Below are positions 57,167 through 63,218 of a DNA stretch of 64,000 nt, piece by piece. Position 1 is the stretch's first letter. Each line of letters starts with the position of its first letter. Location of the stretch: the NCBI GenBank assembly GCA_016840085.1, contig JAEOTA010000018.1, forward strand, positions 140,888-204,887. Direction: 5' to 3'. This DNA is from Promethearchaeota archaeon (lineage in GTDB: Archaea > Asgardarchaeota > Lokiarchaeia > Sigyniarchaeales > SOKP01). The notes under the pieces are model-generated. The model saw only the letters and a program-made list of their open reading frames with translations. It was not told where the DNA came from and ran no database searches. The translations under genes and the position numbers were made by a program.

Positions 57167-58636
57167 TTGATCAATGTGAATAAGGAAGATCTCTATTACA
57201 TTCCCGCATGGGAAATGAAAGAAAAGATAATAAAGCAAGAATTGACTTCAGAGGAATTAACTGAAACAATTATTGAAAGAATTGAAAAAATCAATCCGAT
57301 AATTAATGCTTACTGTTCTACTACATTCGATTTAGCTAGAGATTTAGCAAAAAAAGCTGATACGGCTATTAAAAAGGGTGAAAAATTGGGACTATTACAT
57401 GGTATACCGACTTCTATCAAAGATAATGTTGATGTTAAAGGAATTAGAACTACATGTGGCTGTAAAGCATTTGAAAACTATATTTCTACAGAAGATGATA
57501 TAGCAGTCAAAAGATTGAAGGAAGCGGGCGTGGTTATTTTAGGAAAGACAAACATGCCTGCCTTTGGTTATAAAGGAGTTACTGATAATCTAATTTTTGG
57601 TGCAACGAAAAATCCTTGGCATTTAGAAAGGACTCCAGGAGGATCTACTGGGGGAGGCGCAGCAGCAACAGCTTCTGGATTAAGTCCTTTAACTCAAGGT
57701 TCGGATGGAGGAGGTTCTATCCGAATTCCAAGTAGCTTTTGTGGGTTATATGGTATCAAACCAACTTTTGGACGTATCCCACAAAAATCAATGAAAATAG
57801 AGGGCAATATGGGCACATACGTTCAAAAGGGACCTTTAGTTAGGCATGTAAAAGATGCTGCACTATTTTTAGATGCTTTAGTTGGAGCTGATGATATAGA
57901 CAGATATTCTATACCAAAACCAAATTATAGCTTTTATGATGCAATAGAAGAGAAACCTAAAAAACTTAAAATAGGATATGCAATAGACCTAGGAAATTTA
58001 GAAGTTATTCATTCTGAAGTCGAGAAATCAGTACTAAATGCTGTTAAAAAATTTGAAGAATTCAATTGGTCAGTTGAAAAAAGCAATATTAATCTGTTAT
58101 CAATTGGACATACAATTAGAGGTAATGTGAGTATAGGAAACTATGGATTGACATGGTATACTATATGGACTTATGGAATTGGATACTTTCTCAAACCAAT
58201 AATTGAAGAATTTGGGAGTGTTATGGACCAAGAATTAGTACAAATGGCTCAAAATGGATTCCAACTTACCGCTGAAAATATTTATATGGCAGAAATCCAA
58301 AGGGAAATCATATATGATAATGTATGTAGACATTTTAAAGAATTTGATATTTTAATTACTCCTACCATGGCATGTCCTGCTTTTGAATTAGGTGTATCCT
58401 CCCCAACTAAAATTGATGGGAAGGAGGTTTCCCCAGGAGCCTATTCACCTTATACTCATCCCTTTAATATGAGTGGTCATCCAGCAGCTTCAATTCCTTG
58501 TGGGTGGTCTAAGGATGGTTTACCTATAGGTATGCAAATAGTTGGGAAGAGATTTGATGAGATAACGGTTCTTCAAGTCTCTAAAGCATTCGAAGACGTT
58601 GCCCCTTGGCAAGATAAAAAACCTAAATTTAATTAA
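57167..58636 (+). CDS. Amidase-signature family amidase
   Basis: SIKD, GKTN, GGSTGG and GSDGGGSIR.P motifs. Confidence 0.92.
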   Translation: MINVNKEDLYYIPAWEMKEKIIKQELTSEELTETIIERIEKINPIINAYCSTTFDLARDLAKKADTAIKKGEKLGLLHGIPTSIKDNVDVKGIRTTCGCKAFENYISTEDDIAVKRLKEAGVVILGKTNMPAFGYKGVTDNLIFGATKNPWHLERTPGGSTGGGAAATASGLSPLTQGSDGGGSIRIPSSFCGLYGIKPTFGRIPQKSMKIEGNMGTYVQKGPLVRHVKDAALFLDALVGADDIDRYSIPKPNYSFYDAIEEKPKKLKIGYAIDLGNLEVIHSEVEKSVLNAVKKFEEFNWSVEKSNINLLSIGHTIRGNVSIGNYGLTWYTIWTYGIGYFLKPIIEEFGSVMDQELVQMAQNGFQLTAENIYMAEIQREIIYDNVCRHFKEFDILITPTMACPAFELGVSSPTKIDGKEVSPGAYSPYTHPFNMSGHPAASIPCGWSKDGLPIGMQIVGKRFDEITVLQVSKAFEDVAPWQDKKPKFN

Positions 58637-58675
58637 TTATACTTATTATAAATTTAAATTTGGATCAAGAGAAAA

Positions 58676-60094
58676 ATGAGAAAATATGATATTTGTTTTA
58701 TGTCTGCTTGCGATATGGCAGAGAAAATAAAAAACCAAGAATTATCCTCTGAAGAAATCACTGAAATCATTATTGAAAGGATTGAAAAAACCAATCCAAT
58801 AATTAACGCATATTGTACTACTACATTCGATTTAGGAAGGGAAATGGCTAAAATAGCAGATGAACGAGTAAAGAGAAATGAAAAAATTCCTCTCCTAAAT
58901 GGAATTCCTACTTCTATAAAAGATTTAGTTCCAGTAAAAGGAGTGAGAACTACTTATGGTTCAAAAATTTATGAACATAACATTCCTGAAGATGATGCAA
59001 TTGTCGTTAAACGTTTAAAGGATGATGGTTGCGTAATTTTAGGGAAAACAAATACGCCTGAATTCGGTTTTAAAGGAGTTACTGATAATCTTATTTTTGG
59101 AGTAACACCAAATCCATGGGATCTTGAGAAGACTTCTGGAGGCTCCAGTGGAGGTGCGGCAGCCTCTGTTGTTTCTGGAATGGGCCCTCTAGCTCAGGGT
59201 TCGGATGGAGGAGGTTCTATTCGGCATCCTGCTTGCTTTTGTGGGGCTTATGGTCTTAAACCGAGTTTTGGAAGGGTTCCAATTTATCCAAAAACCAGTC
59301 ATAGCGGTCAAACTTTGTCTGTTATTGGTCCAATTGTAAGATATGTTTCCGATGCAGCATTAATGTTAGATGTTATGAAGGGTCCATTTGAGGGAGATAG
59401 ACATTCATTACCAGAAGATCATATTAAATATTTTGATCATATAAATGAGAAACCAGATAAATTAAAAATTGGGTATACTTTAGATTTAGGTTATGCAAAA
59501 GTTGTAGATGACGAGGTTAAAAAAGCAGTAGTTAATTCAATCCATAAATTTGAATCATTTGGCTGGGAAGTGGAAGAAGCAAAATTTAAGGAGTTCGATC
59601 CTTCCATGGCTTTTAGTACAATGTGGCTAATAATGTTTGGATATGAATTAAAACCTAATTTGAAAGAATGGAAAGATAAAATAGATACCGATTTAGTAAC
59701 TTGGGTTGAAGCGGGATTACGATTTCCAGCATCAAGTCTACCCGATGCTATGAGAATTCGTAGCCAGTTTTATCAATCGATATATGAAACTTTTAAAAAC
59801 TATGATATACTTCTTACTCCATCAACAGCAGTTCCCGCCTTTGAATCAGGGATTACTTACCCATCCAAAATAAATGGGATTGATGTAACTCCCACCGCGT
59901 GGCAAGCATTTACATTTCCATTCAACTTTACAGGACATCCTGCTGCTTCTATTCCTTGTGGATGGACAAATGCCGGTCTACCGATAGGATTACAGATTGT
60001 GGGTAAAAGATTCCAGGAAATGCTAGTTTTACAAGTTTCAAAAGCTTTTGAAGAGAGAGCCCCTTGGCAAGATAAAAAACCAAAGTTTAATTAA
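58676..60094 (+). CDS. Amidase-signature family amidase (tandem paralog)
   Basis: SIKD, GKTNTPEFG, GGSSGG and GSDGGGSIR motifs. Confidence 0.92.
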   Translation: MRKYDICFMSACDMAEKIKNQELSSEEITEIIIERIEKTNPIINAYCTTTFDLGREMAKIADERVKRNEKIPLLNGIPTSIKDLVPVKGVRTTYGSKIYEHNIPEDDAIVVKRLKDDGCVILGKTNTPEFGFKGVTDNLIFGVTPNPWDLEKTSGGSSGGAAASVVSGMGPLAQGSDGGGSIRHPACFCGAYGLKPSFGRVPIYPKTSHSGQTLSVIGPIVRYVSDAALMLDVMKGPFEGDRHSLPEDHIKYFDHINEKPDKLKIGYTLDLGYAKVVDDEVKKAVVNSIHKFESFGWEVEEAKFKEFDPSMAFSTMWLIMFGYELKPNLKEWKDKIDTDLVTWVEAGLRFPASSLPDAMRIRSQFYQSIYETFKNYDILLTPSTAVPAFESGITYPSKINGIDVTPTAWQAFTFPFNFTGHPAASIPCGWTNAGLPIGLQIVGKRFQEMLVLQVSKAFEERAPWQDKKPKFN

Positions 60095-60293: not shown

Positions 60294-60833
60294 TTGAGTA
60301 AAATGGCACGTCCATATCAAAAAGCTAACATTCCTGGTCCTGAGATGGGTACTTCTGTCTCAGATCCAGCGGTGATGGCGAATTTGCTTAAAACACCTAA
60401 AAAGAAGGTGTTCGTTATAGGTGCTGAATCTTTAAATTGGGAACTTGATGGGAAAAAGCTTGCAGATTATTTCATAGAAATTGCAAATAAACTTGATTGT
60501 CATGTAGTCTCAACAGGACATGCATACAAATATTTAAAAGATAAAATTGCTGATAACAAATTGTTCGATATGTCTCTGATAAACATTACAAATCGTTTAT
60601 CTGATAAAGATTGGGCTGGTTTCGATGGAGAAGGACAATATTCTATGGCTATCTTCGGTGGACATATAGTTTTTTACGTCTCTCAAACATTATCTCGACT
60701 CAAGAACTTTACAAATTGGTTAAGAACGATTGATCTAGACAAATATTCTCATCCGAATGCACGATTTAGCTTACCAAATCTAAATGAAGCGGAATGGAAA
60801 GCATTTTTAGAAAATTTGATTGAAAAGTTATAA
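60294..60833 (+). CDS. cdhB: CO dehydrogenase/acetyl-CoA synthase complex subunit epsilon
   Basis: PYQ.ANIPGP, W.GFDG.GQY, YVSQTLS.LKNF and HPNA.FS.PN motifs; directly upstream of cdhC. Confidence 0.9.
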   Translation: MSKMARPYQKANIPGPEMGTSVSDPAVMANLLKTPKKKVFVIGAESLNWELDGKKLADYFIEIANKLDCHVVSTGHAYKYLKDKIADNKLFDMSLINITNRLSDKDWAGFDGEGQYSMAIFGGHIVFYVSQTLSRLKNFTNWLRTIDLDKYSHPNARFSLPNLNEAEWKAFLENLIEKL

Positions 60834-60892: not shown

Positions 60893-62344
60893 ATGAGTTT
60901 TGCAGATTTACCTTTTGATGTAGGACCAGTCTACGAAGGTGAACGTATTAGAGGTAATCAAATGTATATTGAACTTGGTGGGCCTAAGGTCGAGAAGCAT
61001 TTTGAACTCGTGAGAGTGAAGAAAGACAAAGAAATTGAGGATGGGAAGATTACAATCATAGGTCCAAATATTAAAGACATGGAAGAAGGTGGTCGGTATC
61101 CAATTGGTATTTTAGTCGAAGTATCGGGTCCTGAGTTAGAAGAGGATTTAGAAGCAGTGTTCGAGCGTAGAGTTCATGAATTCTGTAATTTCGTGAATGG
61201 CATCATGCATTTGAACCAAAGATATACTAACTGGATGCGACTCTCAAAGTCTCTAATTCAAAAGGGCTTTGATGATCTTACTATGTTAGGGACTGTTCTA
61301 ATTCGATTATACAAAGCAGAATTACCGATTATCAAAAAAGCGCAGGTAACTCTAATAACAGACCCTAAGAAGATTGAAGAACCATACGAGTTTGCCATGG
61401 GTATATACGATAAAAGAGATGAGAGAGCACGAACTATTCATGATGAAGACGTAGATATGTATTACGGTTGTGTACTCTGTCAGTCATTCGCTCCAACGCA
61501 TGCCTGTTGTATTACACCTGATAGAACATCTCTCTGTGGCAGTATTAACTGGTTTGACGCTAGAGCTGCTGCTAAGGTGGACCCTAAAGGACCACAAGAA
61601 ATTGCCAGTTAGGCATTCTGGTTAATTTATGAGGTTCCACCTGGAGAGTGCTTGAATAAAGAAGCAGGTGAATTTTCTGGAGTAAACGAAATGATAAAGA
61701 AACGATCTCTCGGTGAAATCGAAAGAATTTATCTTTATAGCGGAATGGAATTTCCCCATACATCTTGTGGATGCTTTGAGGCTATAGATTTTTTCATACC
61801 TGAAGTGAATGGACACGGAATAGTGGATAGAAATTATGGCACTGTCGCAATAAATGGGCTACCCTTCTCAGCTATGGCAAATCAAACTGGAGGAGGCAAA
61901 CAAATGCCCGGTTTTAATGGTGTGAGCTTCCAGTATATTGGTTCGCCAAAATACCAATTGTATGATGGTTTACAATTGGGTTTTGAAAGCGGCATTTACA
62001 CAATCGTGTGGATGCCAACTACAGTGAAAGAACGAGTGGTAGATTTTCTTCCAGAAGACCTTATTGATAAAATCGCAACAGAAGAGGATGTTCAAGATAT
62101 CAATGAATTAAAGGTATTTCTTAAGGAGAAAAACCATCCTGTAGTGGACACATGGGTAGAGATGGAAGAAGAAGAGGAAGAAGAATGGGAGGAAGAAGGA
62201 GCAATGGTTCCTATGGGAACTGTTGGACTAACAATTCCTGGAGCTGGTGGTGCGGGAGGATTTAAAGTAATTCTTAAGAATTGTAAAGTACACGCCGAAT
62301 CAATAATTATTAAGAAGATCGAGCCTAAACGTAGGAAGAAATAG
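60893..62344 (+). CDS. cdhC: Acetyl-CoA synthase, CODH/ACS subunit beta; interrupted by a candidate 30-nt intron (join 60893..61595, 61626..62344; 473 aa)
   Basis: The two ORF-track pieces are in the same frame. 5' part: YEGERIR, ELGGP, CVLCQSFAPTH.C.ITPDR..LCG. 3' part: PHTSCGCFE, GGG.Q..GF, IVWMP and the acidic linker. A single TAG lies at 61610-61612 inside a 30-nt insertion. Confidence 0.92.
61596..61625 (+). other. Candidate bulge-helix-bulge mRNA intron (30 nt)
   Basis: Central helix GACC 61590-93 / GGUU 61620-23; bulges ACA 61594-96 and AAU 61624-26; intron stems AGAA/UUCU and UGCC/GGCA; exon stem GGUGGACC 61576-83 / GGU(U)CCACC 61633-41; excision restores an open, family-typical sequence. 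Confidence 0.75.
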
Positions 62345-62483: not shown

Positions 62484-63218
62484 TTGAGTATTTTTAAAGT
62501 AAGTTCATTTTTAATGTACATTGGTTATAATTTTACAAAAGGAGTTAATGGATCCATCCAATTACCGTATTTATTCGTATTTTTAGTTTTAGTAGGAGAA
62601 GAATTCGTTGTTTTTTACTTTTTAATAGTAATAATTTTCGGATATTCTGCTAATATTATTTGTATGAAATTAAGACCTAAGTACGGCGCTAAAAAATTGA
62701 TGATCCGATTTGGTTTAATACAAAGTATAGGGGGGTTTATTATATTCTTTTTAATACTCATCCCTGCTATTGAAACCCCTATAATTTGGATTGGACTTTT
62801 ATTTTCGACATTCTTTGGAGGTGCGGGAGTATTATCAGTAATTCTTCAAACATTACCTATTGATGAAGATGAAGTTAAATATGGCTATAGACGAGAAACT
62901 ATGTTTTATGGTATTAATGCCCTTTTTACAAAGCCTGCCGAAAGTCTTGGTCCAATTATGGCAACAGTCATTTTGGTATCATTTTCATATGTTCAAGGGG
63001 GACCGCCAGAAGTTCAACCTGATTCGGCTATACTTGGTATAAAAATTCTTTTTTATGTAGTTCCAAATATTTTTGTGTTAATCGGATTAATATTTGTTCA
63101 TTTTTTTCCATTGGAGGGAGAAAAATATGAGCAACTACAAATAGAATTACGAGCAGTTCACGAGCAGAAAAGAAGGAGTTTAAAATCTGAAAAAAATTTG
63201 AATCCTAATATATCTTAG
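62484..63218 (+). pseudogene. 5'-truncated MFS/GPH (MelB-like) symporter
   Basis: C-half motif DEDEVKYGYRRE.MFYGINA..TKPA; only 244 aa, with no room for the N-terminal six TMs after the cdhC terminator. Confidence 0.6.

What the first reader, a model, noticed from the sequence alone, without database searches (positions are those of the whole stretch)
60893..62344. Intron position makes A-cluster assembly depend on splicing: a possible switch on the Wood-Ljungdahl pathway
Seen: the stop-containing insert lies between the CxxC...C cysteines (exon 1) and the SCGC motif (exon 2), so unspliced mRNA gives a 239-aa fragment. Established: these motifs ligate the [4Fe-4S] and Ni sites of the ACS A-cluster. 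Inference: acetyl-CoA synthase activity would be gated by EndA/RtcB, coupling carbon metabolism to RNA processing.
Basis: inference. Interest (0 to 1): 0.7.

Follow-up and report, generated by a model that had tools for sequence, protein, structure and literature searches.

The report
tRNA-type mini-intron splits Asgard cdhC
The only acetyl-CoA synthase gene of this Asgard archaeon is interrupted by a 30-base, stop-containing insert with the shape of an archaeal tRNA intron, so its mRNA very probably has to be cut and rejoined by the tRNA-splicing enzymes. Nothing indicates that this works as a dedicated switch on carbon fixation.

Summary
cdhC (60893-62344, +) is a single reading frame broken by one TAG (61610-12). 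The TAG lies in a 30-nt insert that every close homologue lacks. The insert sits between the [4Fe-4S] cysteines and the Ni-binding SCGC, and the unspliced frame gives 239 aa.

The insert (61596-61625) folds as a canonical bulge-helix-bulge (BHB) motif. Cutting after the second base of each bulge gives GP-L-YEVPPGE, as in intron-less relatives. EndA and RtcB are present. PylS is absent, and TAG is a normal stop here.

Among 161 related genomes I found BHB introns of 29-32 nt at three cdhC sites in 7 genomes. One is a frameshifting 29-nt intron at the same site as in the window. More occur in cdhA, including two tandem introns around a 20-nt micro-exon, and in EF-2. This genome's EF-2-like and uS3 genes carry them too.

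Obligatory splicing of the cdhC message is therefore well supported by sequence, though no RNA data exist. The "switch" reading is not supported. The intron is sporadic, the nearest relatives lack it, and the same enzymes must also splice translation genes and most tRNAs.

Earlier reports of this scan describe the same phenomenon on other DNA and elsewhere in this genome.

The parts
60294..60833 (+). cdhB (CODH/ACS epsilon subunit), immediately upstream of cdhC
   Evidence: PF02552, E 2.4e-25
60893..61595 (+). cdhC exon 1. It ends after the first base of the Leu codon that is completed by exon 2.
   Evidence: PF03598 plus the start of PF19436. Splice register.
61469..61537 (+). Codons of Cys193, Cys196, Cys205 and Cys215, the [4Fe-4S] ligands of the A-cluster
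   Evidence: Read from the sequence. The spacing C-x2-C-x8-C-x9-C is invariant in alignment A1.
61575..61581 (+). 5' arm of a 7-bp outer helix, AGGUGGA, which pairs with 61636-61642 and brings the exon ends together
   Evidence: MFE fold, z = -2.4. The helix is kept in the BHB-constrained fold.
61590..61593 (+). BHB central helix, exon strand (GACC), which pairs with 61620-61623
   Evidence: 4 of 4 pairs
61594..61596 (+). Bulge 1 (ACA). Predicted 5' cut between 61595 and 61596.
61596..61625 (+). 30-nt BHB mini-intron
   Evidence: Absent from all close homologues. It is the only register with a BHB, and that register restores GP-L-YEVPPGE. Shuffle p 2e-4 to 5e-4.
61597..61619 (+). Intron hairpin h': AGAA:UUCU, a 2-nt bulge, UGCC:GGCA, and a 5-nt loop
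61610..61612 (+). In-frame TAG inside the intron, which ends the unspliced frame at 239 aa
61620..61623 (+). BHB central helix, intron strand (GGUU)
61624..61626 (+). Bulge 2 (AAU). Predicted 3' cut between 61625 and 61626.
61626..62344 (+). cdhC exon 2, including its own TAG stop at 62342-62344
   Evidence: PF19436 continues across the junction. The C-terminus aligns with the homologues' ends.
61636..61642 (+). 3' arm of the outer helix (UCCACCU)
61763..61774 (+). Codons of Ser-Cys-Gly-Cys, the Ni-site ligands of the A-cluster
   Evidence: Read from the sequence. Invariant in A1.

Best explanation
Bases 61596-61625 are a 30-nt bulge-helix-bulge (BHB) intron inside the coding sequence of the genome's single cdhC (acetyl-CoA synthase beta subunit). 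In the pre-mRNA, exon bases GACC (61590-93) pair with intron bases GGUU (61620-23). This 4-bp helix is flanked by two 3-nt bulges on opposite strands (ACA and AAU), by an intron hairpin, and by an exon-exon helix. The splicing endonuclease EndA would cut after the second base of each bulge, and RtcB would join the exons to give ..GGA CCA C|UU UAU GAG.., that is GP-L-YEVPPGE. Only the spliced message encodes both the [4Fe-4S] cysteines and the Cys-Gly-Cys Ni site. Unspliced message yields a 239-aa fragment without the Ni site. The intron belongs to a population of roughly 30-nt mini-introns scattered sporadically over protein genes of this Asgard (Promethearchaeota, Loki-type) family, in a lineage whose tRNA genes are also heavily interrupted. 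It is most likely a tolerated, constitutively removed element and not a regulatory device. Shown here: the anatomy, the comparative pattern, and the presence of the enzymes. Inferred: cleavage, ligation and constitutive removal.
For: - **One frame, one stop, private insert.** cdhC is a single frame with one TAG and a 10-codon insert found in no close homologue.
- **Unique BHB register.** There is one register with central helix 4/4, h 2 bp and h' 4+4 bp, and it alone restores the conserved junction. Intron-less relatives read GGACCAC|T at exactly that point.
- **Statistics and energy.** Shuffle p is 2e-4 to 5e-4. The BHB-constrained fold is -26.6 kcal/mol against an MFE of -27.3.
- **cdhC in relatives.** Six more cdhC genes among 129 carry 29-30-nt stop-containing or frameshifting inserts at three sites. 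One is a 29-nt insert at the window's own site. In each, one BHB register restores the protein.
- **cdhA in relatives.** There are single 30-nt introns in two genomes. Five genomes have two introns (29-32 nt plus 31 nt, each frameshifting) around a 20-nt micro-exon. Only one BHB combination restores YMPICDMCCLCTxGKC.
- **EF-2 of a relative.** A 30-nt BHB intron lies in the P-loop codons.
- **Same genome.** The EF-2-like gene has a 30-nt insert at C4:16273-16302. A BHB register that restores AH-IDHGKTT was worked out by hand from that output. uS3 has a 31-nt intron at C85:142161-142191.
- **Enzymes and code.** EndA (202 aa, N and C domains) and RtcB are present. PylS is absent. TAG ends 15% of long frames and ends cdhC itself.
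- **Selection and copy number.** dN/dS is 0.06-0.07 in exon 1 and 0.05-0.08 in exon 2. There is no second cdhC.
- **tRNA genes.** Only 13-21 tRNA genes are detectable, many about 30 nt too long, and tRNA-Gly has a strict-BHB 30-nt intron.
Against: - No RNA evidence exists for this or any related intron. Cleavage, ligation and completeness of splicing are inferred.
- The helix next to bulge 2 is only 2 bp, and the unconstrained MFE uses a slightly different register.
- Only one EndA gene was found, so the broad-specificity two-subunit form is not shown.
- My genome-wide BHB/ORF-bridging scans showed no excess over decoys. They had no power to show how many introns the genome holds.
- Pairwise dN/dS cannot exclude a very recent inactivation.
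Confidence: 0.85

Rival explanations
1. Regulated splicing. The intron is spliced, but the spliced fraction varies with substrate, Ni supply or growth state, so that EndA/RtcB gate acetyl-CoA synthase. This would be analogous to HAC1/XBP1 mRNA splicing in eukaryotes.
For: - The unspliced product lacks the Ni site, and there is no second cdhC.
- In Haloferax, removal of a BHB intron from the 5' UTR of HVO_1309 appears to matter for its expression (PMC7714728).
- cdhA and cdhC both carry introns in about 5% of related genomes.
Against: - The intron is absent from the nearest relatives, and intron sites differ between genomes.
- The same intron type sits in this genome's EF-2-like and uS3 genes, and tRNA genes are heavily interrupted. 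Lowering EndA/RtcB activity would stop translation as a whole, not one pathway.
- No sensor or dedicated nuclease lies nearby. The neighbours are cdhB, two amidases and an MFS fragment.
Confidence: 0.07
2. Pseudogene. A small hairpin element inserted into cdhC and inactivated it, nothing is spliced, and the organism no longer makes ACS.
For: - The in-frame stop is present in the assembly, and the two closest relatives lack the insert.
- The CODH/ACS genes are dispersed over four contigs.
Against: - There is no other lesion in 473 codons, and dN/dS is equal and low in both exons.
- cdhA, cdhB, cdhD and cdhE are intact.
- The insert has exactly the structure and register that allow precise removal.
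- The same class of insert occurs in uS3 and EF-2, which are essential genes by general knowledge and cannot all be pseudogenes.
Confidence: 0.05
3. Translational recoding. TAG is read as pyrrolysine or read through, or the ribosome hops over the hairpin, giving a CdhC with or without ten extra residues.
For: - Both halves are in the same frame, and the insert is a multiple of three.
Against: - There is no PylS: best hit 25 bits against a cut-off of 178.
- TAG ends 15% of long frames, and it ends cdhC itself where the homologues end.
- Inserts at the same and other sites are 29, 31 and 32 nt long, which read-through cannot repair.
- No matching take-off and landing codons flank the insert (sequence).
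Confidence: 0.02
4. Assembly or sequencing artefact.
For: - The genome is a draft MAG of 89 contigs with 7.6% contamination.
Against: - The 239-aa and 230-aa products are recorded on 3 and 2 contigs from two sources, NCBI and Logan.
- An artefact would not carry a BHB in the right register, and it would not recur in other genomes' cdhC, cdhA and EF-2.
Confidence: 0.01

Closest known systems
BHB intron in the cbf5 pre-mRNA of Crenarchaeota (Watanabe 2002; Yoshinari 2006; Yokobori 2009, PMC2738675)
   Same: Both are introns inside an archaeal protein-coding sequence with a bulge-helix-bulge motif, removed by the tRNA splicing endonuclease and ligase. Both are sporadically gained and lost among relatives.
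   Different: The lineage differs (Asgard/Promethearchaeota) and so does the gene (cdhC, a central metabolic enzyme). Here the introns have a uniform mini size of 29-32 nt. Several sites occur per gene, and tandem introns enclose a 20-nt micro-exon in cdhA. Other genes of the same genome are also interrupted. cbf5 splicing was shown experimentally, whereas here it is inferred.
[quoted passage not shown]
   Same: The motif, the predicted cut positions and the enzymes are the same. This genome's tRNA-Gly(GCC) has a strict-BHB intron of the same 30-nt length.
   Different: The host RNA is an mRNA. The exon half of the motif is made of codons, and removal must preserve a reading frame.
BHB intron in the 5' UTR of Haloferax volcanii HVO_1309 mRNA (PMC7714728)
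   Same: It is an mRNA substrate of EndA, and it has a possible effect on expression.
   Different: That intron lies in the untranslated leader and not in the coding sequence.
HAC1/XBP1 unconventional mRNA splicing (Ire1 plus tRNA ligase/RTCB) in eukaryotes
   Same: A short intron (26 nt in XBP1) is cut out of an mRNA by a non-spliceosomal endonuclease. In metazoa the exons are joined by RtcB. The unspliced message gives a truncated or altered protein.
   Different: There the nuclease is a dedicated stress sensor and the splicing is a proven switch. Here the nuclease is the housekeeping EndA and no regulation is indicated.

Membership tests
Archaeal BHB intron (EndA substrate) | [quoted passage not shown] | tested here: met
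   GACC:GGUU with bulges ACA and AAU, 4 of 4 pairs
Archaeal BHB intron (EndA substrate) | Flanking helices h (exon-exon) and h' (intron hairpin) | tested here: met
   h is 2 bp, with a 7-bp outer helix further out. h' is 4 + 4 bp with a 5-nt loop.
Archaeal BHB intron (EndA substrate) | Cuts in the bulges give a functional joined RNA | tested here: met
   The junction gives GP-L-YEVPPGE, which equals the intron-less relatives at both protein and DNA level
Archaeal BHB intron (EndA substrate) | EndA and an RNA ligase (RtcB) are encoded by the genome | tested here: met
   PF01974 and PF02778 in one 202-aa ORF on C79. PF01139 at 555 bits on C83.
Archaeal BHB intron (EndA substrate) | Structure kept while sequence changes at homologous sites | tested here: met
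   The same site in G046 has the same central helix and a different hairpin. cdhA introns 1 and 2 in five genomes keep 3-9-bp hairpins with different sequences.
Archaeal BHB intron (EndA substrate) | Spliced RNA or excised (circular) intron observed | not testable with these tools
   No transcriptome is available
CdhC / acetyl-CoA synthase beta subunit | CdhC N-terminal and ACS C-terminal domains over the full length | tested here: met
   PF03598 at 2e-61 to 4e-61 and PF19436 at 3e-71. 9c0s at E 3e-152.
CdhC / acetyl-CoA synthase beta subunit | A-cluster ligands C-x2-C-x8-C-x9-C and C-G-C at canonical spacing | tested here: met
   Present and invariant in A1. The 67-residue spacing is reached only after removal of the 30 nt. 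The comparison with Moorella numbering comes from my own knowledge.
Pyrrolysine-decoded TAG | PylS/pylT system present, with the TAG at a position that homologues fill | tested here: not met
   TIGR02367 best hit is 25 bits against a cut-off of 178. The TAG lies in an insert that homologues lack.
Regulatory unconventional mRNA splicing (HAC1/XBP1-like switch) | Intron conserved at one site across the lineage that uses the switch | tested here: not met
   The intron occurs in 7 of 129 cdhC genes, at three sites, and is absent from the two nearest relatives
Regulatory unconventional mRNA splicing (HAC1/XBP1-like switch) | Signal-controlled nuclease, and a spliced fraction that varies with condition | not testable with these tools
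   This needs RNA measurements. Only the housekeeping EndA was found.
Pseudogene | Relaxed selection, further lesions, or an intact paralogue | tested here: not met
   dN/dS is 0.05-0.08 in both exons. The TAG is the only lesion. There is no second cdhC.

The most novel reading that the evidence does not exclude
Splicing of the cdhC intron, and of the cdhA introns in relatives, is incomplete and condition-dependent. The tRNA-splicing machinery would then set the level of active CODH/ACS. That would make it an archaeal counterpart of HAC1/XBP1 splicing in the closest prokaryotic relatives of eukaryotes.
Probability: 0.07. Interest if true: 0.85.

Novelty: new variant of a known kind. Interest (0 to 1): 0.6.

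Why it matters
In the papers I could search, endonuclease-type splicing inside an archaeal coding sequence is documented only for cbf5, plus one 5'-UTR case in Haloferax. Here a central carbon-fixation enzyme of an Asgard archaeon needs it, and so do translation genes of the same genome. If confirmed by RNA data, these relatives of eukaryotes routinely splice mRNAs with EndA and RtcB. RtcB is the ligase that joins XBP1 mRNA in animals. That would bear on how broken genes and RNA-level repair were tolerated before the spliceosome.

There is also a practical consequence. Gene callers split or truncate such genes: the public collection holds 239-aa and 230-aa halves of this cdhC. Metabolic reconstructions of Asgard MAGs can therefore wrongly score the Wood-Ljungdahl pathway as broken.

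Tried and rejected
- **Pyrrolysine or TAG reassignment.** Rejected: no PylS, TAG ends 15% of long frames, and cdhC's own stop is TAG at the homologues' end.
- **Read-through or ribosome hopping.** Rejected because sister introns are 29, 31 and 32 nt long.
- **The 28-nt register suggested by the unconstrained MFE fold.** Rejected because it breaks the frame. The 30-nt register costs only 0.7 kcal/mol more.
- **Genome-wide search for more mRNA introns in G000.** I scanned for BHB geometry plus ORF bridging, with decoys in which the 3' cut is shifted by 1-2 nt. The strict scan gave 319 against 299-330, and the relaxed scan gave 1616 against 1529-1592. There was no excess. The method is swamped by adjacent genes and says nothing either way.
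- **Two bridging candidates inside the window (about 4314 and 22335).** Pfam shows these are separate genes.
- **Exact-match scans of metagenome contigs.** Scans for the intron and for the spliced junction each gave 0 hits.
- **uS3 intron 2.** My quick script gave no single clean BHB register. Only intron 1 is claimed.

Full report
**What is in the sequence**

The finding's coordinates are the whole cdhC gene. ORFs 60893-61612 (239 aa) and 61652-62344 (230 aa) lie in the same frame and are separated by one TAG at 61610-12. Read through, the 483 codons match CdhC/ACS along their whole length. Pfam gives PF03598 and PF19436, and Methanosarcina CdhC 9c0s matches at E 3e-152. cdhB lies directly upstream.

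In the PDB alignments, and in an alignment with 12 Asgard homologues of up to 92% identity, the window has a private 10-codon insert that holds the TAG. The best database hits are named Promethearchaeota, that is Asgard.

The four cysteines C-x2-C-x8-C-x9-C (61469-61537) precede the insert, and S-C-G-C (61763-61774) follows it.

**What the insert is**

One register, and only one, gives a canonical bulge-helix-bulge motif.
- Exon bases GACC (61590-93) pair with GGUU (61620-23).
- The bulges are ACA (61594-96) and AAU (61624-26).
- The intron hairpin spans 61597-61619.
- A 2-bp helix flanks bulge 2, and a 7-bp outer helix joins 61575-81 to 61636-42.

Cutting after the second base of each bulge removes 61596-61625. 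The join CCA C|UU UAU reads GP-L-YEVPPGE, identical to homologue P0003. The closest intron-less relatives read GGACCAC|T at exactly this point in their DNA.

With the 30 nt shuffled, such a motif appears in 2e-4 to 5e-4 of trials. The BHB-constrained fold is within 0.7 kcal/mol of the MFE.

The genome encodes EndA (202 aa, with N and C domains) and RtcB.

**Rivals**

- *Pyrrolysine.* Excluded. There is no PylS. TAG ends 15% of long frames. cdhC itself ends with TAG where the homologues end.
- *Pseudogene.* Unlikely. The TAG is the only lesion. dN/dS against the two nearest relatives is 0.057 and 0.074 in exon 1, and 0.047 and 0.079 in exon 2. There is no second cdhC. cdhA, cdhD and cdhE are intact, on other contigs.
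- *Artefact.* Unlikely. The two half-proteins are recorded on 3 and 2 contigs from NCBI and Logan.

**Relatives**

In 161 genomes of the class, 129 have cdhC and six more are interrupted.
- G046 has a 29-nt, frameshifting insert at the window's own site. It has the same GACC:GGUU helix and a different hairpin.
- G064, G121 and G067 have 30 nt at SAMA^NQTGGG.
- G087 and G080 have 30 nt at QTGGG^KQ.

In each of these, one BHB register (3-4 of 4 central pairs, hairpins up to 10 bp) restores the conserved protein, while neighbouring registers pair 0-2 of 4 or lack both flanking helices.

cdhA shows the same pattern. G038 and G046 have single 30-nt introns. G051, G069, G101, G102 and G059 each have two introns (29-32 nt and 31 nt, each frameshifting on its own) around a 20-nt micro-exon. 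Exactly one BHB combination restores YMPICDMCCLCTxGKC.

EF-2 of G073 has a 30-nt BHB intron in GHIDHGK^TT.

Frameshifting lengths and paired introns cannot be explained by read-through or by random damage.

**The same genome**

ARAGORN finds 13 tRNA genes and Rfam's tRNA model finds 21. Many are about 30 nt too long. tRNA-Gly(GCC) has a strict-BHB intron of 30 nt.

My own genome-wide BHB and ORF-bridging scans showed no excess over decoys and had no power.

Earlier notes of this scan say this genome has a dozen or more mRNA mini-introns. I tested two of them.
- The EF-2-like gene has a 30-nt insert at C4:16273-16302 that splits AH^IDHGKTT. I worked out its BHB register by hand from that output.
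- uS3 is broken and has a 31-nt BHB intron at C85:142161-142191, with 4 of 4 central pairs.

**The interpretation**

The dependence of A-cluster formation on splicing follows if the intron is spliced, which I rate at 0.85. The further claim of a switch is not supported, for four reasons.
- The intron is sporadic. It is found in 7 of 129 cdhC genes, at three sites, and is absent from the nearest relatives.
- Nothing ties it to the metal-binding motifs beyond lying in conserved sequence.
- EndA and RtcB must also process this genome's own translation genes, and probably most of its tRNAs, so they cannot be throttled for cdhC alone.
- No sensor lies nearby.

Regulation remains untested, and I give it 0.07.

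**Literature**

Searches found coding-sequence BHB introns only for crenarchaeal cbf5 (PMC2738675), plus a 5'-UTR intron in Haloferax HVO_1309 (PMC7714728). A 2026 preprint on Asgard tRNA introns does not treat mRNAs. No paper on Asgard mRNA introns turned up.

This scan has reported the same phenomenon before, on other genomes and on other parts of this genome.

Noticed in passing
Loci L046-L050 (cdhA of G051, G069, G102, G101, G059): Two BHB mini-introns, each frameshifting, flank a 20-nt micro-exon that encodes the CD-x-CC part of the N-terminal cysteine motif of CODH alpha. G038 and G046 have single introns at two further points, so three intron sites fall within about 27 nt.
   Followed up: yes
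All intron loci: The exon side of the 5' cut is often TGGC, TGCC or TGGT followed by AA or TA, and the intron then ends with its complement plus AA or AT. This may be an insertion-site preference or just what the motif needs. The window's own intron (GACC AC|A) does not fit the pattern.
   Followed up: no
G000:C4:16273-16302 (minus strand) and G000:C85:142161-142191: This genome's EF-2-like gene and its uS3 gene each carry a BHB mini-intron of 30 and 31 nt. uS3 has a second interruption near 142242-142285, for which I found no single clean register.
   Followed up: partly
G000, whole genome: Only 13 (ARAGORN) to 21 (Rfam RF00005) tRNA genes are detectable in a genome scored 98.8% complete, and many are 101-133 nt long. 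Most tRNA genes are probably interrupted beyond what standard tools can recognise.
   Followed up: partly
L051 (G034 cdhA) and L054 (G130 EF-2): These genes have single in-frame stops without any insert: TGA in GACGVA*GAMSQ, and TAG in RLIREL*LTDEQ. They are not introns. They may be point mutations, sequencing errors or recoding.
   Followed up: no
window 62484-63218 (+): This ORF matches only the C-terminal half (profile positions 234-426 of 427) of an MFS_2 transporter and starts 140 nt after cdhC. It is either a truncated gene or a half-size transporter.
   Followed up: no
window 57167-60094 (+): Two tandem amidase paralogues (489 and 472 aa; Pfam Amidase PF01425 was run on the second only) lie directly upstream of cdhB-cdhC. 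cdhA, cdhD and cdhE lie on three other contigs, so the CODH/ACS genes are dispersed and do not form one operon.
   Followed up: partly
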